From assembly GCA_964366515.1 (NCBI GenBank), contig CAYIUF010000001.1:51388-115387 (forward strand): DNA of 64,000 nt, given 5' to 3'. This document shows, in pieces, positions 52,141 through 62,650 of the stretch; the stretch's first letter is position 1; every line of letters begins with the position of its first letter. The translations under genes were made by a program, and so were the position numbers. Source of the DNA: an uncultured Gammaproteobacteria bacterium. GTDB taxonomy: Bacteria; Patescibacteriota; Microgenomatia; UBA8517; UBA10165. Below the pieces are notes generated by a model that did not search any database, was not told where the DNA came from, and saw only the letters and a list, made by a program, of their open reading frames with translations.

Positions 52141-53646
52141 TTCAAATTTAAAATTCCCCTGCTGTTTTTGGGAATATTCTTACTAGCTTTGTTCCTCCGT
52201 ACGTACAATATCTTCTCAATTCCCATCTTTGCAGATGAGGCAATTTATATAAGATGGGCGCAGGTTATGCGCGCTGTCGCCTCCCTAAGATTTCTTCCAT
52301 TATCAGATGGCAAACAGCCCTTGTTTATGTGGATGATGATTCCGCTTCTCAAGGTGGTCACAGACCCTCTTGTGGCAGGCCGGATACTATCTGTGCTTTC
52401 GGGTCTTGGCGCTTTGGTGGGTGTATTTTTATTAACCAACAAACTGTTTGGCAAAAAACCTGCGTTGTTTGCGTCTTTTTTATATGCAATTTCCCCGTTT
52501 ACTGTTTTTTTCGACAGAATGGCACTAGTTGATAGCATGTTGGCAATGTTTGGGATCTGGTCACTCTACCTTGGTGTGCTAACTGCACAAACCTTAAGAC
52601 TGGACTACGCAATGTTAACCGGATTTGCCTTAGGCGGAGCATACCTAACAAAGTCCCCTGGAATATTCTTTCTTGCACTCCTTCCGACAACAATCTTGGC
52701 TGCCAAATGGAAAGACAACAAACATTCAAACTTAAATCAAGTTGGGAAACTCATCGGTTTGTGGAGTGTTTCATGGATTATCGGTCTCGGCTTGTATAAC
52801 ATCCTAAGGCTTGGCCCAGAATTTCATATGTTGGCAATAAGAAACAAAGATTATGTTTATAGCTTTGCAGATTTTTTCAAGCACCCCTTCGACCCGCTTA
52901 GGCCCCACATGGGGGATATACAATCATGGTTTTGGAATTTGCTGCCGGCTACAACTCTGGGCGCGGCGGTTTTCGGAATCGTAGCCAGTTTTAAAAAATC
53001 ATGGAAAATGGTACTACTTCTTCTTGCATGGTGCCTTGGCCCTCTGTTTGTCGAAGCCGCTTTAGCAAAAGTCTTTACAGCAAGATATGTCCTTTTTACT
53101 GCAACCCCCATGTTTATACTGGCTGGCGCAGGCGCCGCATTTGCGGCAAAGAAAATTAAAACTTTAACTGTTGTTGGACTACTTGGAGCAATGCCCCTCA
53201 CCATAAACTATCTACTTCTAACTGCTCCTGAAAAAGCCCCCCTCCACAAAAACGAAAGGGCAGGGTATCTGGAGGAGTGGACATCAGGAACAGGAATCAG
53301 AGAAATTGCAAAATATATAAAAGCTGAGAAGATAAAAAATCCTGAACAAAATATAGTTGTTGGGACAGAAGGTTATTTTGGAACCCTCCCGGACGGTTTA
53401 CAGATTTATTTATCAGATATTCCGGGAATTGTTGTAAGAGGGGTTGGGGTTACAATCTTTGATGTGGATTCTTCTCTTATTGACGCAAAAAAAGCAGGCA
53501 ACAGAGTATTTCTTGTAGTTAACTCAACGAGATTCAAGATTGAGAATCCAGAACTTAAGGGATTGGTTTTGGTAAATCAATATCTCAAAGCAAAAAGATC
53601 AAATGGCACTCAAGAAGCATTAACGCTTTGGGAGCTTGCCAAGTAA
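52096..53646 (+). CDS. ArnT/PMT-family GT-C glycosyltransferase (paralogue 3)
   Basis: IFADEAIYIRWAQ...ALFASFLYAISPF resembles the other two paralogues. The first 20 codons lie in the repeat tract, so the true start may be internal. Confidence 0.65.
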   Translation: MFKTFKFSNSFQISNFKFKIPLLFLGIFLLALFLRTYNIFSIPIFADEAIYIRWAQVMRAVASLRFLPLSDGKQPLFMWMMIPLLKVVTDPLVAGRILSVLSGLGALVGVFLLTNKLFGKKPALFASFLYAISPFTVFFDRMALVDSMLAMFGIWSLYLGVLTAQTLRLDYAMLTGFALGGAYLTKSPGIFFLALLPTTILAAKWKDNKHSNLNQVGKLIGLWSVSWIIGLGLYNILRLGPEFHMLAIRNKDYVYSFADFFKHPFDPLRPHMGDIQSWFWNLLPATTLGAAVFGIVASFKKSWKMVLLLLAWCLGPLFVEAALAKVFTARYVLFTATPMFILAGAGAAFAAKKIKTLTVVGLLGAMPLTINYLLLTAPEKAPLHKNERAGYLEEWTSGTGIREIAKYIKAEKIKNPEQNIVVGTEGYFGTLPDGLQIYLSDIPGIVVRGVGVTIFDVDSSLIDAKKAGNRVFLVVNSTRFKIENPELKGLVLVNQYLKAKRSNGTQEALTLWELAK

Positions 53647-54259
53647 GATCACCTTGAATAAAGCCGCAAGAGAACACTTCAAAAAAACCGACCCAATTTT
53701 ATATAAAGCACTAGAAAAAGTTGGTAAAGTGGAAATGGACAAGCCAAGAAGTCCGAAAGTATATTTTGAACATCTTGTTCGCTCAATTGTTTTCCAACAG
53801 TTGTCCGGGAAAGCTGCAAATACAATATATAGTAGATTCATGGCGTTGCTTCCAAAAGGAAAGGTGACCCCAGAAACTATCTTAAAACTAAGCGATGAAG
53901 AGATTCGTGGAGCAGGAATTTCAGGCCAGAAGATGGGCTATATCCGAGATTTATCGCAAAAGGTAAAAGATAAAGAAGTAGACCTTAACAATCTCCAAAA
54001 TTTAAGTGACGAGGAAGTAATAAGTGAGCTAACTAAAGTTAAAGGGATAGGCCGCTGGACAGCCGAAATGTTCCTCATGTTCACACTAACCCGCCCCGAC
54101 ATTTTCTCCCATGGCGACCTTGGCTTAAGGAATGCAATTAAAATGCTATACAAACTTGAAAACCCGACCCAAGAGCAAGTAGAACTCATTTGTGCAAAGT
54201 GGTCGCCACACAGAACATACGCTTGCAGAATCTTGTGGGAAAGCCTGGATAATCGCTGA
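53636..54259 (+). CDS. HhH-GPD DNA glycosylase (AlkA / 3-methyladenine glycosylase II-like)
   Basis: LTKVKGIGRWTAEMFLMF...D.GLRNAI helix-hairpin-helix GPD motif with catalytic Asp. Confidence 0.8.
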   Translation: MPSKITLNKAAREHFKKTDPILYKALEKVGKVEMDKPRSPKVYFEHLVRSIVFQQLSGKAANTIYSRFMALLPKGKVTPETILKLSDEEIRGAGISGQKMGYIRDLSQKVKDKEVDLNNLQNLSDEEVISELTKVKGIGRWTAEMFLMFTLTRPDIFSHGDLGLRNAIKMLYKLENPTQEQVELICAKWSPHRTYACRILWESLDNR

Positions 54260-54291
54260 AGCTCATATATCGAGTACGCTATAACAGATGA

Positions 54292-55149
54292 TCACTTCAA
54301 TATATAAATATCCTGGTTAGTCTCAGAAGTCCCCACAAGCTCGCCCGAGCCTCGGAGTATTGCCTCGTAGGGAAGGCAGTTGTTGCACCCGTTAGTGGAG
54401 CAGTTCAAAAGATTCAATTGCCTTGCAAGCTTAATTCGCTTTGCAACCTCCATCACCCTGTCAATTGCGTCTTTTTCTTCAGGTAAGACAGCCTCCTGTG
54501 GGGTGTCGCTTTTATCTATATACCAATAACTTGCTTTCGAAACTGGATACTTTTGAGTATTTTTAGTCAAAAGATAGTATATCGGAAGCTGTAAAGAGCC
54601 CTCAGACTCCTCATTTTTACCGGTCTTGAAGTCAACAATATGAACTGATCCATCGTCCATATATTCCAACCAATCAATCTTCCCACACAAAATTATGTTG
54701 TCTTCTTTGGAAAATAAATATCGCGGCAGTTCAAAATTAGATTTTGACCCGTCCTCTTCTCTTGGGGTGATTTTTATGGCCTTGTTTAGAAGTATTCCCG
54801 GATTTTTCTCTACTCGCGCAAGCATTGCCAAACCCCGCTCTTTGTATTCTGCTTCTTGCTCAGGAGTTCTAAACCCCCCCATTTTCCCTGAAACTTTTGC
54901 CCATGCTTCCTCAAACTTTTTAGATAAAGGCTCCTTAAATCTTTCGGCTGCAGGAAACGCAGACAAGGCCTCCAAAGTCTCATGAACCGCCTGCCCCAAA
55001 GCCAAAGGGGGAGACATAATGGTCATCTTCCTGTTTGTCGCCTTGCTCTTATACATATTTCGAAGATAATAAGACCGGGCACACTTCAAAAAATCTCCAA
55101 TTGAAGAATGAGATACCCAAACCGGCTGGCTTTCTCTGGGCTTGATCAC
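54292..55149 (-). CDS. PD-(D/E)XK nuclease with Cas4-like 4-Cys iron-sulfur module (RecB-family, stand-alone)
   Basis: N-terminal Cys (DFLKCARSYY), a VHIVDFKTGK core (DxK) consistent with a PD-(D/E)XK nuclease fold, C-terminal CSTNGCNNC triad. No cas genes or CRISPR nearby. Confidence 0.65.
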   Translation of the reverse strand: MIKPRESQPVWVSHSSIGDFLKCARSYYLRNMYKSKATNRKMTIMSPPLALGQAVHETLEALSAFPAAERFKEPLSKKFEEAWAKVSGKMGGFRTPEQEAEYKERGLAMLARVEKNPGILLNKAIKITPREEDGSKSNFELPRYLFSKEDNIILCGKIDWLEYMDDGSVHIVDFKTGKNEESEGSLQLPIYYLLTKNTQKYPVSKASYWYIDKSDTPQEAVLPEEKDAIDRVMEVAKRIKLARQLNLLNCSTNGCNNCLPYEAILRGSGELVGTSETNQDIYILK

Positions 55150-55259
55150 AAATACAATCTAGTGCAAATGAGGGAAGCGAGTCAATAAGAAATTGCAGAA
55201 TCTCAAATTAAGGGAATATACTATTAATAAACCGCCACTGATACTACGGCGGGTCAAAG

Positions 55260-55535
55260 GTGGTGAGAAATTTGAAACTTAATCCTCACAAAGTAGGTCT
55301 AACAGTAGGGACAATGTTTGTTATTGTCCATACCATCTGGGGTGTTGGCATAGCCCTTGGCTTTGCCCAAACACTTCTTGATTGGATGATGTCCTTGCAC
55401 TTTGTACAAGTGACCCATTCCTATTCAAGCTTTAACTTAACAAGCTTGCTTACTCTCTTAGTAGTTGCAGCAGTAAGGGGGTACGTAGGAGGCTACATCC
55501 TAGCCAGTGTATGGAACTACTGGAATAAAAAGTAA
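55260..55535 (+). CDS. hypothetical small membrane protein
   Basis: 91 aa, three TM helices, GTG start. Confidence 0.35.
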   Translation: MVRNLKLNPHKVGLTVGTMFVIVHTIWGVGIALGFAQTLLDWMMSLHFVQVTHSYSSFNLTSLLTLLVVAAVRGYVGGYILASVWNYWNKK

Positions 55536-55538
55536 AGG

Positions 55539-55808
55539 TTAGTATTGTCGGTACTTGTCGTGCGTACCGATATCAAGAAGAATTGCAGTTGTTTTATCAA
55601 TCCACATAAAAAATATCCTGCTCCCTTTATCAATTCTTATTGTCCAATAACGGGAGCCTTTAAGCTTTTCTAAATTCAAGCTAGGATGCTTCGGGTTGCT
55701 TACAAACACACGGAGAGCTTTTGTAGTTCTATTAAGAAGTTCGAAGTTGTTTCTCAAAAACTTTCTCCTCTCATGCAAGTATTTTTGAGAATATTTTAAT
55801 TCGATCAC
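55539..55808 (-). CDS. RelE/ParE-family type II toxin
   Basis: 89 aa. KLKGSRYWTIRIDKGSRIFF...DIGTHDKY matches the RelE/ParE core. Immediately downstream of the antitoxin. Confidence 0.7.
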   Translation of the reverse strand: MIELKYSQKYLHERRKFLRNNFELLNRTTKALRVFVSNPKHPSLNLEKLKGSRYWTIRIDKGSRIFFMWIDKTTAILLDIGTHDKYRQY

Positions 55809-55811
55809 GCC

Positions 55812-56081
55812 TTAGAAGCCCGCTTCTTTTCTCATTTCCTCAAAATCAGCCTCTAGCTCTTCTGGTGTAGAAATCGACTTTATTTTCCCAGACCTATATT
55901 CCTTTAAGGCCTCATCCGCGACCGCGTCTAATTGAAGCTTTTCCAAAAGATTAAGGCCAATAATTGCCCCCTGGGGCCTATTATTAGACATAACAACAAT
56001 GGGTTCTTTGGATTTATTTGCCTGCTCCAAAACCTTTTTATACCCTCTTTGAATTTGTCTTGCTGAAATCGTTGCTAACAT
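55812..56081 (-). CDS. Phd/YefM-family type II antitoxin
   Basis: 89 aa. RQIQRGYKKVLEQA...EPIVVMSNNRPQGAIIGL is typical of the Phd/YefM N-domain. 3-nt gap to the toxin gene. Confidence 0.7.
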   Translation of the reverse strand: MLATISARQIQRGYKKVLEQANKSKEPIVVMSNNRPQGAIIGLNLLEKLQLDAVADEALKEYRSGKIKSISTPEELEADFEEMRKEAGF

Positions 56082-56128
56082 ATGTAATCATATTATCACA
56101 TATGTTAATGTATGTCAAGTTGACATAC
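56078..56128 (-). promoter_or_regulatory. TA operon promoter TTGACA-17-TAATAT with operator palindromes
   Basis: Minus strand: TTGACA (56118-56113), 17 nt, TAATAT (56095-56090), 8 nt, ATG. A perfect 19-bp palindrome GTATGTCAAgTTGACATAC (56110-56128) overlaps the -35. Two copies of the self-complementary ACATATGT (56078-56085, 56098-56105) flank the -10. Confidence 0.6.
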
Positions 56129-56140
56129 AACAAGAGAACT

Positions 56141-56548
56141 TCATAAGTTCAAAATTAAGATAGAAAGTTGAAGTAGTGTGGCCAAAATGACCCAAGCCAA
56201 ATAAGGAACCTGTGCCCATGCAACAAAAGGTGAGTATTTATATATTGCCCGAATGCCCCAGACTATAGTCCCAAGGGCGACCAAAATGTCAATTGAAGCC
56301 AGAGGGACATTTTTTAAGCCAAAAAGAAGAGGAGTAAAAAGAAAATTGGCAATTAGATTTATAACAAACGGAGCCAAAACTTTCTTTGGAAACTTGCGAA
56401 TATAAACCTTGTAAAAGACATACCCAAAAGATAGAAAAATAACAGGATAAAGAACTCCCCAAATAGCTCCAATTGTTTCACCCGTTGGAGTCCAAGCAGG
56501 CTTTTCTAAAGCAGAGTACCATTCTTCCCAATTCCAAGAATCAAACAT
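56141..56548 (-). CDS. TspO/MBR tryptophan-rich sensory protein family
   Basis: W-rich 5-TM protein. LEKPAWTP, VLYPVIFLS, and NLIANFLFTPLLFG motifs. Confidence 0.75.
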   Translation of the reverse strand: MFDSWNWEEWYSALEKPAWTPTGETIGAIWGVLYPVIFLSFGYVFYKVYIRKFPKKVLAPFVINLIANFLFTPLLFGLKNVPLASIDILVALGTIVWGIRAIYKYSPFVAWAQVPYLAWVILATLLQLSILILNL

Positions 56549-56644
56549 AATTCGTCACCATTCTATATATTTAACTGAAACACAAACAGTAGATAAGTTC
56601 AATGGATCAAAGTCGAACGCGGACTAAGGATATCAAGCGGCGCT

Positions 56645-57469
56645 TTGGTGTGTTATTATACCTCGCCTCGCCAGACTTGGATGTTCAAAGAAAGATTTAC
56701 AAGAAGACAAGGTTTTGAAAGGGTGGCTGGCGTTGCAGGTGCAGCAGTCCTTGCCCCCGAACTTATCCCCGTAAGAATAAAAATCTTAACTTACCACGCT
56801 TTATCCTCTCCTGACCAAATCTACAACGATGTAATTGCCTTGATGAGATACGATGCAAATCGCACTCCAAAAACAGGTTACTTTCCGACTGATTTAGATA
56901 CTGCCGTTAAACTAATATCCCACGAGGAATCAGCAGACCAACATTTTCTTGTAGTGACATGCGACGATGGCCTTAGCTCACAAATGGATAATGCAAGAGC
57001 TGCGGCAGAAAGAATCGAGAAAGAGACAGGCAGCCCTTGCCCTGTGGAGTTCTTTGTTTTAACAAAGCTTGAAAATTCCCCAGACCCTGTTGAGGAAATG
57101 CCTGATGAAACCCTCTCCTACTTTGATGGAAATGAGGGCAAGCATGCAAACCTGGGGCAGTTAAAGACTATTGCCCGCGCAGGTATTCACAAAATTAGAA
57201 ACCATACGGTAAACCACGCTACGCTGCCTAATTTAACAATAGACGCAAGAAATGGAGAAGTTGAAGATGGGGAGAAGAAAGTGTTGGCAATCTATAGATC
57301 TGTAAAGGCAAAAACTCCGAGGAAAAAAGTGTTCGCATATCCAAGAGGGGCATATGCAGGACAAATTGATTATATATTAAGCCATTACGATATGGCGGTA
57401 AGCACAGAAGCAAAGGAAGTACATTTTATTTCCGATATGGGGCATATAGGAAGAGAAGGAAAAAGTTAA
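56645..57469 (+). CDS. polysaccharide deacetylase (NodB homology domain) family protein
   Basis: VVTCDDGLSS (TFDDG-type motif 1) and NHTVNHATL (His motif). Start uncertain. Confidence 0.5.
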   Translation: MVCYYTSPRQTWMFKERFTRRQGFERVAGVAGAAVLAPELIPVRIKILTYHALSSPDQIYNDVIALMRYDANRTPKTGYFPTDLDTAVKLISHEESADQHFLVVTCDDGLSSQMDNARAAAERIEKETGSPCPVEFFVLTKLENSPDPVEEMPDETLSYFDGNEGKHANLGQLKTIARAGIHKIRNHTVNHATLPNLTIDARNGEVEDGEKKVLAIYRSVKAKTPRKKVFAYPRGAYAGQIDYILSHYDMAVSTEAKEVHFISDMGHIGREGKS

Positions 57470-57654
57470 ATAAGGGCGAGAAGAAACTTTAAAGCAACGA
57501 GTACTAAAAACGCGAGGACAAACAAACGAGCATAATATGGAAGTGTTTTAACTACTGGAATTGAATCAACCAAAGCAACTGATTTTCGGGTGTGATGAAC
57601 TACTCTCCTAGAAGTTCTTCTCTTTGCAACTTTTCTTTTCTTTCGGGCAGCCAT
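57466..57654 (-). CDS. hypothetical small protein with basic N-terminus and C-terminal TM helix
   Basis: 62 aa. MAARKKRKVAKRRTSRR... then LFVLAFLVLVALKFLLALI. SecE-like architecture, but context does not support that call. Confidence 0.3.
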   Translation of the reverse strand: MAARKKRKVAKRRTSRRVVHHTRKSVALVDSIPVVKTLPYYARLFVLAFLVLVALKFLLALI

Positions 57655-57725
57655 GTGTAACTAACTATCTCTTAAAGGAGACATAAATGTCAAGTGGTTA
57701 TTTAAAAAACTGATAGAATAATAAT

Positions 57726-58151
57726 ATGGGGAAAAAACACAAAAGACGCAGGAAAAAGATTTTGATACTCACAAAACCTGTGGTGCCTGAAAAACTAATC
57801 ACCCTCTCAAGAAGCATACCGTTGAATGCAGCCCAGCAGGATAGGATATCTTTCTCAGTTTTGAGAAATGTAAAAAATAAACTAAGAAAAATTGAAAACA
57901 TCTCTTATGAAATTAACATCGATGGTAATTGGGAGTGGGTTGTTCGGTATGACGACCACGGAGGCAAGGGGTCGCTACATAAGCACTATCGAGTTTCGCT
58001 AAAAGACAATAGTGAAGTTGAATCCTCTACAGGAATAAAAAAGTATAAAAACAAAGATTACGAATTGACTTGGGTATGCAAAGACATTAAGCACAATCAT
58101 CAGACATATCGTTCAAAGTTTCTAAAAGCACAGGGACTTGACTTGTATTAA
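57726..58151 (+). CDS. hypothetical protein
   Basis: 141 aa with basic N-terminus. ATG 6 nt after the extended -10 TGATAGAAT (57711-57719). No family recognised. Confidence 0.45.
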   Translation: MGKKHKRRRKKILILTKPVVPEKLITLSRSIPLNAAQQDRISFSVLRNVKNKLRKIENISYEINIDGNWEWVVRYDDHGGKGSLHKHYRVSLKDNSEVESSTGIKKYKNKDYELTWVCKDIKHNHQTYRSKFLKAQGLDLY

Positions 58152-58206
58152 TCAAAAAACTACAGTATTATTACGATCCTCCCACACATAGACTGTAAAA
58201 GAAAAT

Positions 58207-58461
58207 ATGGGCACAAAGCTTCAAACTGAAAAGAATATAGATTTAACACACAAACTGATTGACTACTTGGTGAACGGCAAAGCTGTTCCTGAGCTACCAC
58301 AGGATGTGTCATTTGTCCCCTTTTCCAAAACTGACAAAAAACTTAATAAGGTAAATAACGAGCTGCTTGTAGCTATTTCCAAACAGGAGAAACCAGTCGC
58401 AATCGCTGAAGAACCGAAGTCTAGCGCAGAACCTTGGAAAATAACCCCGGTAAATTTTTAA
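58207..58461 (+). CDS. hypothetical protein
   Basis: 84-aa ORF convergent with, and overlapping by 4 nt, the restriction enzyme gene. Confidence 0.35.
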   Translation: MGTKLQTEKNIDLTHKLIDYLVNGKAVPELPQDVSFVPFSKTDKKLNKVNNELLVAISKQEKPVAIAEEPKSSAEPWKITPVNF

Positions 58462-61127
58462 CCCCCATTCTCAATGATTTCGATCTCCGATGGAGTAAGG
58501 CCGTAGAGTTTATAAACTTCTTGGTCAATTTTTTTATCAGCCTTTTCAATTTCCGAATTTACCAAATTCCACCTCTCAGAATTTCTTTCTAATGATTCCA
58601 GTTGCTTATTTAAGGACAGTATTTTTTCTGAAAGCTGCATAATCGCTTTGCTATCACCTGAAGAGGGTTCAATAATAGGAAATTTATCTAGATGCAGGTT
58701 TTTAAGTTGTGGCGTACTATTTCGATTAGTTACAGCAAAATTTTTGTAATAAATGTTAATGAGTTTTGAATTTAGAATAGCCAACAATAATAGTAGCTTA
58801 TCTCTCTCTACCCCATAAATAAAATACAAAGATTGTTCAGGATAAATACCAGAATCATCAAAAGTCGCTATAATATCGGATCCTGTCTTTCTAAGCAAAA
58901 TTTTATTTTTTACAGATAGTTTACTTTCATCTCGAGTTCTTCCGGTCAAATTTTTATCTGTGAAATTAAACCAATAAAATCCCTTAACCAAGTATCGTCC
59001 AATATTTTCACCCTTTATTATTCTAATTTCTTTTTCACTTTGTTTATTCAAGTGAATTTCAGTTGTCTTTGCACCGCAGCCTGAAGTAGATTCGGCAACC
59101 TGCGATAACAATTTTATCGATGGTTTTGCAAAGATTCTTTCAAATAGATTTTGTATCTTTTGATCGATATAGAAGAAGCTTTTATCATCTTGCTGATCAA
59201 ATACCTTCTGTACGATTTTTGAGTATCCTTGATTTTTATAGTCCCCAATCTCAATTATTTCTCGCAGCCCTGGTTTACTTTTTTGCAATACAAAAATCAT
59301 CGTGTCGGCAATAACGCCAGGAAAGTCAACATTAAAAAGTAGGTGTTTCAGTGTGAAGTTTTGTAAAATATGCTTTCTGAGTTCGACAAATTGCTGGTTA
59401 GAAGCGAGTCTGTCTGGAATAATAAAGCTAAAATACCCATCTTTTTTTAGTAACTCTAGACTCTTGTATATAAACATTTCGTACAAATTTGGCGCATATG
59501 TGTTGGACTTATATTTTTGCGTTAGAAACTCAATTTCTTTTTTAATGAAGTCATCACTTCTAAACTTTCCGCTCATTGATACCCATGGCGGATTCCCAAT
59601 CACAACATCAAAGCCTCCTTGTTTAAAAACCTCTGGGAACTCTTCCTCCCAAATGAAAGGCCTCTTTTCTCGATAATTTATCCCATAAACCGACCTTAGC
59701 TCAGTATCAGTTCCTGAGATCAAAGAGTTTCCGTTCTTAATATTTTTATCTAGGTTTGGTAACTTAAGTTTGCTGTCTAGAGCAAACAAGAGTAGGTTAA
59801 GTCGAGCAATTTCAATAGCTTGTGTGTCAAGGTCGACTCCGTAAATATTCTCCATAAGAATGGTTAGTTTTGTGAAAGTTCCCATAGGGCTTCCGAAGTC
59901 TAAGTGTTTCTGGTAAATAAAATTTGCTGCTTTAATCAAGAATGAACCCGAACCACAGGCAGGATCCAACACTTTTATTTTCTTTAGATCATTTATACTT
60001 TCACATTTATCCAAAACTGGTCCCAAGGTGTTTTTAACGATATAATCCACGACATAGTCGGGCGTGTAATAGATGCCCTGATCTTTTCTTTTCTTTGCAT
60101 CTTTATTAAGTGTGAGCCCTTTTTTTGATTTAAACAGTCTATAACCTAAATAGTTTTCATAAACACCACCAAGAACATCTGAGGGAATAACTTTAAAATC
60201 ATATTCGTAATACCCTTGTTTTCCCTGAAGTATTCGGAAAACCCTCTCAGTTGTGTTGTTCCAGTCTTCCCAGTCCTCAAGGGGATGCTCTGAAAATAAG
60301 TTTGAATCGTATATTTCATCCAACTCTCTAAACTTTGCAATCATAGATTTATATAATGGTATTTCATTACGAGTTTTACTGTTCTCCCAGTCTCGTATAA
60401 GCGGTATTAACGTTGGTGGTTCAATGCCTCGATCTTCTGCCACACGAATAAAAATTAGCCTATCTAAAAGTTTCTGTACACCTTCATCTAGCAGTTCATC
60501 GTCCACGTCGGGATTCATTTGTCCCAGTTTTTCTATTAATAGTTCTCGACACAAGGTAAGGTCTTTATACAAGGAAGAAGTAACAGAAACACGTTGAAGC
60601 TTTTTACCTATTTTTTCGGCTTCTTTATCAATTAGATTTTTTACAAACGCTTCTTTAGACAACAGCCATAGTTGGTCAAAGCGTTCTAGGTAATCGGTAT
60701 ATGGAATTTCGAAGTATAACTTGTCTGATAAATGGCTATCTATTACTTGAGCATTGAATACCTTTAGGCTTTCAAAGTCAGTGAGCACAGCCCATGTTGC
60801 GCCCTTATTCCAGGAGTATTTGATTGCTTGATTTGCATATTCTTCCCTGTGAAGGTCGCTCTTTAGGGGTTTAGCCTCCAAGTAGAATTTAAGTCTATTG
60901 CTTACATAAAACCCGAAATCAACACGACCATTTGATTGATGCTCCTCGGCAGTAACCTCACTCCTATCCGCAGTGTCCCAGCCAAGTGCATCGAATAAGG
61001 GACGGATGAAGCCATTCTTTGTGTCTTCCTCGGTGTATTTGTTTATATCCCCCGACTTCTTAACCAATTCATACTTTTCTATTAACTGCCTCACTTTCTC
61101 TCGCGCAGAGTGCATTGAATCATTCAT
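58458..61127 (-). CDS. Type IIG/IIL restriction-modification fusion enzyme (N-terminal PD-ExK endonuclease + gamma-class N6-adenine methyltransferase + target recognition domain; Eco57I/MmeI-like)
   Basis: N-terminal VDFGFYVSNRLKFYLEAKPL (D...ExK), MTase motif I LDPACGSGSFL, motif IV VIGNPPW. 889 aa. Confidence 0.85.
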   Translation of the reverse strand: MNDSMHSAREKVRQLIEKYELVKKSGDINKYTEEDTKNGFIRPLFDALGWDTADRSEVTAEEHQSNGRVDFGFYVSNRLKFYLEAKPLKSDLHREEYANQAIKYSWNKGATWAVLTDFESLKVFNAQVIDSHLSDKLYFEIPYTDYLERFDQLWLLSKEAFVKNLIDKEAEKIGKKLQRVSVTSSLYKDLTLCRELLIEKLGQMNPDVDDELLDEGVQKLLDRLIFIRVAEDRGIEPPTLIPLIRDWENSKTRNEIPLYKSMIAKFRELDEIYDSNLFSEHPLEDWEDWNNTTERVFRILQGKQGYYEYDFKVIPSDVLGGVYENYLGYRLFKSKKGLTLNKDAKKRKDQGIYYTPDYVVDYIVKNTLGPVLDKCESINDLKKIKVLDPACGSGSFLIKAANFIYQKHLDFGSPMGTFTKLTILMENIYGVDLDTQAIEIARLNLLLFALDSKLKLPNLDKNIKNGNSLISGTDTELRSVYGINYREKRPFIWEEEFPEVFKQGGFDVVIGNPPWVSMSGKFRSDDFIKKEIEFLTQKYKSNTYAPNLYEMFIYKSLELLKKDGYFSFIIPDRLASNQQFVELRKHILQNFTLKHLLFNVDFPGVIADTMIFVLQKSKPGLREIIEIGDYKNQGYSKIVQKVFDQQDDKSFFYIDQKIQNLFERIFAKPSIKLLSQVAESTSGCGAKTTEIHLNKQSEKEIRIIKGENIGRYLVKGFYWFNFTDKNLTGRTRDESKLSVKNKILLRKTGSDIIATFDDSGIYPEQSLYFIYGVERDKLLLLLAILNSKLINIYYKNFAVTNRNSTPQLKNLHLDKFPIIEPSSGDSKAIMQLSEKILSLNKQLESLERNSERWNLVNSEIEKADKKIDQEVYKLYGLTPSEIEIIENGG

Positions 61128-61171
61128 AATGAGTTAGAGAATTTTAGCAGAAAACCAGCCTTAAATATATC

Positions 61172-61978
61172 TTATAGATAGGAGGTCTGAGCAGCGACCC
61201 TTTTTAATTCGGTAAACCGACTTTGAGCCATCTCCAAGTATTTCGGATCAGAATCAATCCCCACAAAACTTCTGCCATACAAACTAGCAACAACCCCAGT
61301 TGTCCCACTCCCACAAAACGGATCTAAAATCGAATCACCTTTTCTTGTGCAAGACAAAATAATTCTCTTTAACAACTCTTGGGGTTTTTGGGTTGGATGC
61401 TTTCCAAACTTTCTTTCAATTAAACCTGGTGCATGTATTGCCCAGACAGAACCCATTTGTTCTCCCTGTTTTTTCAAAAAATCCTGCCCCCAGTCAGTCT
61501 TTTTTAAATACTCGTATGAAAACTTATGTTTCGCAATCTTTTCTTTCTTTGCCCAAATTAGGGACTCATGTTGGGCTTTAAACATTCTGCCCGAAATGTT
61601 ATCCGCAGATTTTGGTTTATACCAAGCAATCTCGTTTAATATGTGGAAACCTTCCAGTTCAAGTGCATACCCGCATTTGTAGATATTATGGTATGTTCCG
61701 GACAGCCATATTGTGCCGTCTGGCTTTAATAACCTTCGGCACTCACTTATCCACTTTTTGTGGAACTTAAAATCTTCCTCTACTCCTTCGGACTTATCCC
61801 ACCCTCCTTTGTTTACAGAAACTAACCTCCCAGACTCACTTGTAAATCCGCCATTCGACAATCTGTAGGGAGGATCAGCATAAATCATGTCAAAACTGTC
61901 TGCGGGAAGTTGAGGGAGAATTTCTAAACTATTACCGTGATATAACGTAAATCTGTCCTTTTGAAAATAGGGGTTCAT
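61172..61978 (-). CDS. beta-class DNA methyltransferase (N6-adenine or N4-cytosine), stand-alone
   Basis: Motif IV IYADPPY precedes motif I ILDPFCGSGTT (beta-class order). 268 aa. Immediately upstream of, and co-oriented with, the IIG enzyme. Confidence 0.9.
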   Translation of the reverse strand: MNPYFQKDRFTLYHGNSLEILPQLPADSFDMIYADPPYRLSNGGFTSESGRLVSVNKGGWDKSEGVEEDFKFHKKWISECRRLLKPDGTIWLSGTYHNIYKCGYALELEGFHILNEIAWYKPKSADNISGRMFKAQHESLIWAKKEKIAKHKFSYEYLKKTDWGQDFLKKQGEQMGSVWAIHAPGLIERKFGKHPTQKPQELLKRIILSCTRKGDSILDPFCGSGTTGVVASLYGRSFVGIDSDPKYLEMAQSRFTELKRVAAQTSYL

Positions 61979-62017
61979 CTTGGTCGGGACAGATTACCCA
62001 GATGATATACTCGGGCA

Positions 62018-62650
62018 ATGGAGAAGACAATCAGGGATTTTGTAGATAAACTCGCAAAAACAAAAGCCCCAGAAAACGCAGTGAATATGTTCTCATTTGA
62101 CGTTGCCCAAAACGAAACGCGCAGAAACAATTTGTATTTGTATCTTTCTCAAATGGCCGAAAAGAAGCCTGAGGTACTATTAGTAGGAGAAGCCCCGGGA
62201 TATCAGGGCATGCGTTGGACCGGCATGCCGTTTGGATCTGAATACCACATTCTCCGTGGCATTCCCGAAATTGGAATGTTCGGAGAAGAAAGAGGATACA
62301 AAAAAACTGACGAATGGGACAAGGTTTGGAAAGAACCCTCCTCAACAATCGTCTGGGGGACCATGAAAAGTATTACGAACGTTCCGCTAATTTGGGCTTC
62401 TTACCCATATCACCCACACCAGAGTGGAAAACCCCTAACAAACCGTGCCCCCTCAAATATCGAGCTAGAAATAGGCCGACCATTTTTGGCGGACTTGATA
62501 GAAATCTACAAAATCAAGAAAGTTTTAGCAGTTGGCTATAAAGCAGTTACAACTTTGGGTAAAATGGGAATTGAAGCTCCATATATAAGGCACCCATCCC
62601 ATGGCGGAGCAAAACTATTTGCCGAAGGGATCAGATTTCATTTGGACTAA
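62018..62650 (+). CDS. uracil-DNA glycosylase superfamily protein (GEAPG / HPS motifs, no Fe-S cysteines)
   Basis: Motif A LLVGEAPGYQG...GMPF and motif B IRHPSHGG. No Cys in the whole protein. ATG 6 nt after the extended -10 TGATATACT (62003-62011). Confidence 0.55.
   Translation: MEKTIRDFVDKLAKTKAPENAVNMFSFDVAQNETRRNNLYLYLSQMAEKKPEVLLVGEAPGYQGMRWTGMPFGSEYHILRGIPEIGMFGEERGYKKTDEWDKVWKEPSSTIVWGTMKSITNVPLIWASYPYHPHQSGKPLTNRAPSNIELEIGRPFLADLIEIYKIKKVLAVGYKAVTTLGKMGIEAPYIRHPSHGGAKLFAEGIRFHLD

What the first reader, a model, noticed from the sequence alone, without database searches (positions are those of the whole stretch)
58458..61978. Eco57I-like restriction-modification arrangement: Type IIG fusion enzyme plus separate beta-class methyltransferase
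The 889-aa ORF has the full MmeI/Eco57I architecture: N-terminal D...ExK endonuclease, gamma-class MTase motifs I and IV (DPACGSGSFL, NPPW), and a C-terminal TRD. It is preceded by a co-oriented stand-alone beta-class MTase (DPPY before FCGSG). MmeI-type enzymes modify one strand and need no partner. A companion MTase is the Eco57I-type solution and implies an asymmetric recognition site. The TRD (roughly residues 600-889) is unrecognisable, so the specificity is probably new.
Basis: partly seen in the sequence, partly recalled or inferred. Interest (0 to 1): 0.5.

Follow-up and report, generated by a model that had tools for sequence, protein, structure and literature searches.

The report
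Solitary restriction-methylase fusion beside unrelated methylase
The window holds an intact single-protein restriction-modification enzyme (Type IIG) on a roughly 6-kb inserted island, and the small methylase next to it is a resident gene of this lineage rather than its partner, so the locus is an ordinary member of a common family.

Summary
Both ORFs and all quoted motifs are real. They are an 889-aa ORF (58458-61127, minus strand) and a 268-aa beta-class N6-adenine methyltransferase (MTase; 61172-61978, minus strand), 44 bp apart.

The large protein is a bona fide Type IIG enzyme:
- A gamma-class MTase domain.
- A C-terminal target recognition domain (TRD).

The "Eco57I-like pair" reading is not supported:
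- Of 80 genome loci with homologs of the large protein, one has a beta-MTase hit, weak and over 4 kb away.
- Of 80 metagenome loci sharing this TRD, two have weak, distant hits.
- The 125 immediate neighbours show no recurrent DNA methylase family.
- In related Patescibacteria the MTase (77-84% identical) keeps the same flanking genes without the Type IIG gene. The Type IIG gene lies in a low-GC insertion of about 6 kb (about 55.2-61.2 kb).
- The closest MTase relative (87%) is the first methylase of an AlwI-family Type IIS system.

Best reading: a solitary enzyme organised like MmeI, from a TRD-shuffling family, sitting beside an orphan methylase. It is a new member of a known kind, of low to moderate interest.

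The parts
58458..61127 (-). Type IIG restriction-modification fusion gene (889 aa), intact
   Evidence: ORF. PADLOC REase_MTase_IIG E 1.4e-92. Pfam Eco57I, N6_Mtase and TaqI_C. AF2 model pLDDT 86.6, with full-length Foldseek matches to BrxX, BpuSI, MmeI and DrdV.
60738..61127 (-). N-terminal PD-(D/E)XK endonuclease domain (about aa 1-130; core E33, D70, E84, K86)
60108..60737 (-). Helical connector (about aa 131-340), conserved in the family
   Evidence: Median 66% identity to the homologs. The model is mostly helical here.
59583..60107 (-). Gamma-class N6-adenine MTase core (about aa 341-515): YYTP 353-356, DPACGSGSFL 388-397, NPPW 512-515
   Evidence: Median 70% identity to the homologs.
58623..59582 (-). 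Hypervariable region with the TaqI_C-type TRD (about aa 516-835; Pfam match 703-818)
   Evidence: TaqI_C E 5e-21. Median 25% identity to the homologs, but 55-64% to a 17-member subgroup. 254 metagenome relatives.
58458..58622 (-). Conserved C-terminal helices (aa 836-889)
   Evidence: Family-wide conserved ...EIEKxDKKIDxEVYKLYGLTxxEI... tail.
61128..61171 (-). 44-bp spacer between the MTase stop and the Type IIG start; no promoter-like or terminator-like site, so read-through transcription is plausible
   Evidence: The only promoter-like site nearby is at 62030-62002 (-), upstream of the MTase.
61172..61978 (-). Beta-class N6-adenine DNA MTase (268 aa), resident and syntenic, probably an orphan
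   Evidence: PF01555 E 1.9e-56. CcrM 6PBD E 2e-55 over the catalytic domain only. Orthologs at 77-84% identity keep the same flanks without the Type IIG gene. It is 87% identical to M1 of an AlwI-family Type IIS system in L101.
55216..61205 (.). Segment of about 6 kb absent from syntenic relatives (inserted or variable island). It holds the Type IIG gene, DUF5647-like, DUF7718, a deacetylase-like gene, TspO and a Phd antitoxin with a small partner ORF
   Evidence: tblastx and blastn colinearity breaks at about 55215 and about 61205-61214 against L086, L092 and L093. GC is 0.31-0.37 over the Type IIG gene versus about 0.40-0.45 in the flanks.
54292..55149 (-). Cas4-like PDDEXK_1 nuclease. In relatives it lies directly downstream of the MTase, which marks the far edge of the insertion
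   Evidence: PF12705 E 1.9e-22. Synteny.
62018..62650 (+). UDG-superfamily gene, divergent from the MTase; a syntenic flank
   Evidence: Pfam UDG E 4.4e-06. Syntenic with L086.

Best explanation
The 889-aa gene encodes a self-contained Type IIG restriction-modification enzyme.

Inferred mechanism, by analogy with Eco57I, BpuSI, MmeI and DrdV:
- The TaqI_C-type TRD reads a short asymmetric site.
- The gamma-class MTase domain methylates one adenine in that site to mark self DNA.
- The N-terminal PD-(D/E)XK domain (D70, E84, K86) cuts unmodified DNA at a fixed distance from the site.

Shown here:
- The enzyme belongs to a very large family, mostly in Patescibacteria. The first ~515 residues and last ~50 residues are conserved and the middle ~320 residues are swapped as a cassette.
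- Members of the family normally occur without any companion methylase, which is the MmeI-like gene organisation.
- In this genome the gene arrived on, or as part of, a low-GC variable segment of about 6 kb. That segment is inserted between a resident beta-class adenine MTase and a Cas4-like nuclease gene.
- The adjacent MTase is therefore a neighbour by insertion. It is a lineage-conserved, probably orphan, methylase of a subfamily whose closest member is M1 of an AlwI/BspD6I-type Type IIS system.

The two genes are probably co-transcribed, but nothing indicates they recognise the same site.

Solitary organisation of the family:
- The beta-MTase is found by tblastn in 1 of 80 genome loci (24% identity, over 4 kb away).
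- No recurrent DNA-MTase Pfam family appears among 125 immediate neighbours.
- Close same-TRD relatives P0002, P0014 and P0051 lack a PF01555 neighbour.
- Of 80 same-TRD metagenome loci, 43 have at least 1 kb upstream and 40 have at least 1 kb downstream. They give only two weak, distant beta-MTase hits.

Resident MTase and insertion:
- P0123 and P0122 loci show UDG ... MTase > PDDEXK_1 > HhH-GPD > PMT > GT2 with no Type IIG gene.
- The window is colinear with them on both sides, with about 55.2-61.2 kb extra.
- GC dips over the Type IIG gene.

TRD cassette shuffling:
- Median identity is 62/66/70% in the nuclease, linker and MTase regions against 25% in the variable region.
- The TRD-sharing subgroup is less similar to the window protein in its N-terminal regions.

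Literature: solitary Type IIG enzymes are free to change specificity, whereas Eco57I needs a second MTase (PMC2582602).
Against: - The two genes are co-oriented, only 44 bp apart, with no terminator-like site between them. That is what an operon would look like.
- A partner MTase encoded elsewhere in the genomes of the solitary homologs cannot be excluded from contig-level data.
- The MTase's closest relative belongs to a system for an asymmetric site. Strand-specific methylation by it is therefore conceivable.
- No recognition sequence is known for either protein.
- Whether the 6 kb arrived in one event or several is unknown, and no flanking repeats or integrase were found.
Confidence: 0.75

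Rival explanations
1. One reading: an Eco57I-like two-gene system. The Type IIG enzyme methylates one strand of an asymmetric site and the upstream beta-class MTase methylates the other (or both). The MTase would then be required for host protection.
For: - The genes are co-oriented with a 44-bp gap and no terminator between them.
- Eco57I-type systems do need a second MTase (PMC2582602).
- The closest MTase relative is M1 of a Type IIS system, which by definition handles an asymmetric site.
Against: - Linkage is not conserved in 160 homologous loci or in three close relatives.
- MTase orthologs keep their position in genomes without the Type IIG gene.
- The Type IIG gene lies in an insertion with unrelated cargo.
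- From memory, not tested here: M.Eco57I is itself an Eco57I-family gamma-class enzyme, not a beta-class one.
Confidence: 0.1
2. Historical variant: the beta-MTase is the surviving M1 of an AlwI/BspD6I-type M1-R-M2 Type IIS system that once occupied this spot. R and M2 were lost in relatives, or replaced by the present island in this genome. This would make the site a defence-gene turnover hotspot.
For: - L101 carries an M1 that is 87% identical, followed by RE_AlwI (E 3e-81; N.BspD6I 2e-23) and a second PF01555 MTase.
- Different contents lie downstream of the MTase in the window, in L086, and in L092/L093.
Against: - L101 is not syntenic with the window on either side.
- No RE_AlwI or M2 remnant is detectable in the window by tblastn.
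- The direction of transfer, from an R-M system to the chromosome or the reverse, is unknown.
Confidence: 0.25
3. The Type IIG protein is nuclease-dead or otherwise acts only as a methylase, like CamA or BREX PglX, which its MTase-TRD module most resembles.
For: The best sequence and fold matches of the MTase-TRD part are methylase-only proteins: CamA at 4.7e-45, then BrxX and M.BseCI.
Against: - The N-terminal nuclease domain is present and confidently modelled.
- It carries E33, D70, E84 and K86, invariant across 85 homologs, which indicates purifying selection on catalysis.
- CamA and PglX lack this domain.
Confidence: 0.07

Closest known systems
Eco57I (Type IIG R-M enzyme plus separate M.Eco57I)
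   Same: It is a single chain with an N-terminal nuclease, a gamma-class N6A MTase of the Pfam Eco57I family (E 7e-36) and a C-terminal TRD. A methylase gene lies next door.
   Different: The neighbouring MTase is beta-class and is not conserved with the family. It is resident in relatives that lack the Type IIG gene. No evidence was found that a second MTase is required.
MmeI (Type IIG/IIL, solitary, one-strand modification)
   Same: The family is organised as a solitary gene. Specificity is decided within the one chain that both protects and restricts, so it can change quickly. The full-length fold matches 5HR4 (Foldseek E about 3e-20).
   Different: Sequence similarity is weak: Pfam MmeI_Mtase 50 bits against Eco57I 124 bits, and the PDB profile hit to MmeI is only 1.6e-7. 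The TRD is TaqI_C-type, and specificity seems to change by whole-cassette swapping. From memory, the MmeI family is instead known for point changes.
BpuSI and DrdV (structurally solved Type IIG/IIL enzymes)
   Different: Only about 15% sequence identity. From memory, BpuSI comes with accompanying cytosine MTases.
CamA, M.TaqI, M.BseCI and BREX PglX (gamma-class MTase plus TaqI_C-type TRD)
   Same: They are the best sequence and fold matches for residues ~340-840.
   Different: They have no nuclease domain. CamA is an orphan methylase and PglX is part of BREX.
CcrM (beta-class GANTC MTase)
   Same: The catalytic domain of the 268-aa MTase aligns at E 2e-55. DPPY, Tyr93-His94, Lys118, His134 and Glu135 are conserved.
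   Different: It lacks the CcrM C-terminal DNA-binding domain. Loop-2B Arg44-Pro45 and Loop-45 Arg129 are not conserved in the alignment. It scores 222 bits against the 830-bit cut-off of the NCBIfam CcrM model. GANTC specificity is therefore not established.
M1 of AlwI/PleI/BspD6I-type Type IIS systems
   Same: The closest relative of the window MTase (87% aa, same length) is the first gene of an M1-RE_AlwI-M2 cluster in L101.
   Different: The window has no RE_AlwI gene and no second beta-MTase.

Membership tests
Type IIG restriction-modification fusion enzymes | Endonuclease domain with catalytic PD-(D/E)XK residues in the same polypeptide | tested here: met
Type IIG restriction-modification fusion enzymes | N6-adenine MTase domain (gamma class: motif I before motif IV) fused to the nuclease | tested here: met
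   DPACGSGSFL at 388 and NPPW at 512. Pfam Eco57I 7e-36 and N6_Mtase 2e-23. PADLOC Type IIG profile 1.4e-92 over residues 8-680.
Type IIG restriction-modification fusion enzymes | Target recognition domain in the same chain | tested here: met
   TaqI_C 5e-21 at residues 703-818. Profile and fold matches to CamA, TaqI and BseCI cover the TRD.
Type IIG restriction-modification fusion enzymes | Site-specific cleavage at a fixed distance and AdoMet-dependent methylation | not testable with these tools
   Needs purified protein or a methylome.
Eco57I-type arrangement (Type IIG enzyme plus cognate separate MTase) | A companion MTase gene conserved next to the R-M gene across relatives | tested here: not met
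   1 of 80 genome loci, 2 of 80 same-TRD loci and 0 of 3 close relatives have any beta-MTase, and those hits are weak and distant. No recurrent MTase family among 125 neighbours.
Eco57I-type arrangement (Type IIG enzyme plus cognate separate MTase) | MTase and R-M gene inherited or transferred together | tested here: not met
   MTase orthologs (77-84% identity) lie in conserved synteny without the Type IIG gene. The Type IIG gene is inside a 6-kb insertion.
Eco57I-type arrangement (Type IIG enzyme plus cognate separate MTase) | Both enzymes recognise the same asymmetric site | not testable with these tools
   No recognition sequence can be derived. REBASE was not available.
MmeI family (sensu stricto) | Sequence membership (MmeI-specific domains) | tested here: not met
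   Only MmeI_Mtase at 50.5 bits, below the Eco57I score. No other MmeI domain appears in the window protein's Pfam list. The PDB profile hit to 5HR4 is 1.6e-7.
MmeI family (sensu stricto) | Solitary gene with no companion MTase | tested here: met
   True at the family level. In the window itself a neighbouring MTase exists, but it is explained by the insertion.
CcrM/HinfI-type GANTC methyltransferases (for the 268-aa MTase) | Beta-class motif order with DPPY | tested here: met
   DPPY at residue 35 precedes FCGSG at residue 221. PF01555 1.9e-56.
CcrM/HinfI-type GANTC methyltransferases (for the 268-aa MTase) | [quoted passage not shown] | tested here: not met
   The protein ends where the CcrM catalytic domain ends. 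Arg44 aligns to Ser, Pro45 to Glu and Arg129 to Met. The NCBIfam CcrM model scores 222 bits against a cut-off of 830.
AlwI/BspD6I-type Type IIS system (M1-R-M2) | RE_AlwI endonuclease and a second MTase adjacent to M1 | tested here: not met
   Both are present in L101. tblastn with the L101 R and M2 proteins finds no endonuclease and no second MTase gene in the window; the only M2 match is the resident MTase itself.

The most novel reading that the evidence does not exclude
The juxtaposition is a newly born functional pairing. An island carrying a normally solitary Type IIG gene landed directly behind a resident orphan methylase derived from a Type IIS system and is now read through from its promoter. 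The resident MTase would then supply second-strand or backup protection, or couple restriction expression to prior methylase expression. That would be an Eco57I-like system caught at its origin.
Probability: 0.07. Interest if true: 0.5.

Novelty: new member of a known kind. Interest (0 to 1): 0.25.

Why it matters
For annotation, the MTase next to the Type IIG gene should not be labelled its cognate partner. Adjacency alone misleads in small genomes with tightly packed genes.

The family is abundant in uncultivated Patescibacteria and other lineages: 7815 of the 8000 candidates scored had E <= 1e-10. It shows clear swapping of the TRD cassette between conserved N- and C-terminal scaffolds. That makes it a natural set for learning TaqI_C-type specificity rules and a possible source of new Type IIG specificities.

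Nothing here changes current understanding of restriction-modification biology.

Tried and rejected
- **Island boundary repeats or a mobility gene.** Only short chance-level repeats were found, and no integrase or transposase lies in 55-61.5 kb.
- **Promoter and terminator scan.** Promoter-like sites were fewer than in shuffles, and nothing lies between the two genes. The scan is not informative beyond making read-through plausible.
- **GANTC avoidance as a hint to MTase specificity or a lost cognate endonuclease.** Observed/expected is 0.93, which is unremarkable among 16 NNnNN palindromes.
- **Transferring CcrM's GANTC specificity by homology.** Rejected because the base-contact loops differ and the C-terminal domain is missing.
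- **Phase-variable repeats in the Type IIG gene.** None found.
- **Viral contigs.** Only distant relatives (33% identity or less), so there is no sign this subfamily is phage-borne.
- **tRNA and Rfam scans of the window.** Only two tRNAs, far from the locus.
- **The Cas4-like PDDEXK_1 gene as the MTase's cognate endonuclease.** Considered because it directly follows the MTase in relatives. It was not pursued: it matches the whole RecB/Cas4-type profile and sits among repair genes.
Full report
**Observation.** The region holds two co-oriented minus-strand ORFs, 889 aa at 58458-61127 and 268 aa at 61172-61978, separated by 44 bp.
DPACGSGSFL is at 388-397 and NPPW at 512-515 in the large protein. 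In the small protein DPPY (35) precedes FCGSG (221).
- Neither ORF is a chance reading frame. The large protein matches a PADLOC Type IIG profile over residues 8-680 at E 1.4e-92. It also matches Pfam Eco57I (7e-36), N6_Mtase (2e-23) and TaqI_C (5e-21, residues 703-818).
- The small protein matches Pfam N6_N4_Mtase at 1.9e-56.
- The statement that the TRD is unrecognisable is therefore wrong.

**The large protein.** A database search scored 8000 candidates and 7815 had E <= 1e-10. Those that carry a source name are from Patescibacteria (Levy-, Woese-, Jorgensen-, Azambacteria and others). An identical sequence sits on a 123-kb NCBI/ENA contig and on Hainich H43 groundwater contigs.
- In alignments of 26 and 85 homologs, E33, D70, E84, K86 and Q100 are invariant, as are the MTase motifs.
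- An AlphaFold model of the whole protein (pLDDT 86.6, pTM 0.79) matches BrxX/PglX, CamA, M.BseCI, BpuSI, MmeI and DrdV by Foldseek.
- The mechanism is inferred from these families, not shown: site reading by the TRD, methylation of one adenine, and cleavage at a distance.

**A mosaic family.** Median identity of 84 homologs to the window protein is 62% in the nuclease, 66% in the linker, 70% in the MTase core and 52% in the last 54 residues. It is only 25% in residues 516-835.
- Seventeen homologs share that middle region at 55-64% identity while being less similar in the N-terminal parts. P0102, for example, has 32% in the linker and 58% in the variable region.
- This is the signature of TRD cassette exchange between conserved scaffolds.
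- The window's TRD type is common. A metagenome scan with an alignment of it found 254 confirmed relatives.

**Is the beta-class MTase its partner?** Four independent tests say no.
1. In 80 genome loci encoding homologs from many phyla, tblastn with the window MTase finds one hit, at 24% identity and more than 4 kb away.
2. The 125 ORFs immediately flanking those 80 genes show no recurrent DNA-methylase Pfam family.
3. The close relatives with the same TRD type (P0002 at 62% identity, P0014, P0051) have no PF01555 neighbour. P0002 has an unrelated Dam-like gene two genes away.
4. Eighty metagenome loci share this TRD. Of these, 43 have at least 1 kb upstream and 40 have at least 1 kb downstream of a full-length gene. 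Only two have any beta-MTase-like hit, at 25-27% identity and about 2.9 kb or more away.

If a second-strand MTase were needed, it would have to co-vary with the TRD. It does not.

**The MTase's own history.**
- Its closest syntenic relatives are P0122 (84%) and P0123 (77%, Candidatus Blackburnbacteria, found on many contigs).
- In the P0123 loci the gene order is UDG-like, (NUDIX), MTase, Cas4-like PDDEXK_1, HhH-GPD, YfhO/PMT and GT2, with no Type IIG gene. The shorter P0122 contigs show MTase, PDDEXK_1 and PMT in the same order.
- tblastx and blastn show the window is colinear with these loci from 50.9 to about 55.2 kb and from about 61.2 to 63.9 kb. About 55.2-61.2 kb is extra.
- The extra segment holds:
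  - the Type IIG gene;
  - a convergent DUF5647-like/DUF7718 pair;
  - a deacetylase-like gene;
  - TspO;
  - a Phd antitoxin with a small partner ORF.
- GC falls to 0.31-0.37 over the Type IIG gene, against about 0.40-0.45 nearby.
- The Type IIG gene therefore lies in an insertion next to a resident MTase. No flanking repeats or mobility genes were found, so whether the insertion was one event or several is unknown.

**What the MTase is.** It resembles the CcrM catalytic domain (E 2e-55). It differs as follows:
- It lacks the CcrM C-terminal domain.
- The base-contact residues described for CcrM (PMC6787082) are not conserved. In the alignment Arg44 becomes Ser, Pro45 becomes Glu and Arg129 becomes Met.
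- Its own subfamily has an invariant and different Loop-2B, DPPYxLSNGGFT...VNKGxWDKS.
- It misses the NCBIfam CcrM cut-off (222 bits against 830).

GANTC specificity cannot be assumed, and GANTC is not avoided in the window (observed/expected 0.93).

Unexpectedly, the closest relative of all (87% aa, same 268-aa length) is the first gene of an M1 / RE_AlwI / M2 cluster on contig L101.
- That endonuclease matches Pfam RE_AlwI at 3e-81 and N.BspD6I at 2e-23.
- The window has neither that endonuclease nor a second MTase.
- Other subfamily members at about 60% identity occur alone in housekeeping contexts or inside other R-M-like clusters.
- The most economical reading is that the window MTase is an orphan, possibly descended from a Type IIS system.

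**Verdict.**
- The Type IIG call is right.
- The 'Eco57I-like arrangement' is a coincidence of insertion.
- The family behaves like MmeI in gene organisation. The MmeI paper (PMC2582602) argues that this organisation frees specificity to evolve, which fits the TRD shuffling seen here.
- The family is not an MmeI family member by sequence.
- Co-transcription with the MTase is plausible: the gap is 44 bp with no terminator-like site.
- A functional interaction is not strictly excluded, but no evidence supports it. I give it about 0.1.
- R-M genes on islands in Patescibacteria are already documented (PMC12455944).
- This is a new member of a known kind, of low to moderate interest.

Noticed in passing
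window 53636-55149 and 61172-62650; loci L086-L094: In three diverged Patescibacteria lineages the beta-class adenine MTase keeps company with DNA-repair-type genes. These are a UDG-superfamily protein, NUDIX (in L086), a Cas4-like PDDEXK_1 nuclease directly downstream, and an HhH-GPD glycosylase. Whether this orphan methylase has a role in repair or replication is open.
   Followed up: partly
L101:116-4859: A 5-hmdU DNA kinase-like gene (HMUDK_hel, E 2e-99) sits directly upstream of an M1 / RE_AlwI / M2 Type IIS system. Its M1 is 87% identical to the window MTase. This juxtaposes a thymidine-hypermodification gene with an R-M system on a 5.3-kb contig of unknown origin.
   Followed up: partly
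window 57726-58461: A DUF7718 gene (141 aa) and a DUF5647-like gene (84 aa) form a co-oriented pair, convergent with the Type IIG gene. The 84-aa ORF's stop overlaps the Type IIG stop by 4 bp. The pair travels with the Type IIG gene on the identical Hainich contigs, but was not found in the 80 loci sharing the TRD type.
   Followed up: partly
window 55539-56081: A Phd/YefM-type antitoxin (55812-56081, minus strand) is followed by an 89-aa ORF with no Pfam hit (55539-55808, minus strand). This is probably a toxin-antitoxin pair inside the same inserted segment. The closest Type IIG relative (L081) also has an RHH/YafQ-like pair beside it.
   Followed up: no
window 58623-59582 (aa 516-835 of the Type IIG protein) and alignment A3: Family-wide cassette swapping of the TRD between conserved N- and C-terminal scaffolds. 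TRD similarity is decoupled from similarity in the N-terminal regions, which implies recombination among Patescibacteria enzymes.
   Followed up: partly
L095:4001-6862: A 62%-identical MTase relative lies in a cluster of MTase / DUF6996-DUF6997 protein / second N6_N4 MTase, next to Mrr-like and GmrSD-like genes and an integrase. It may be another R-M arrangement that uses this MTase subfamily.
   Followed up: no
window 56141-56548: A TspO/MBR family membrane protein (E 2.8e-26) is encoded within the inserted segment. This is unusual cargo beside defence genes.
   Followed up: no
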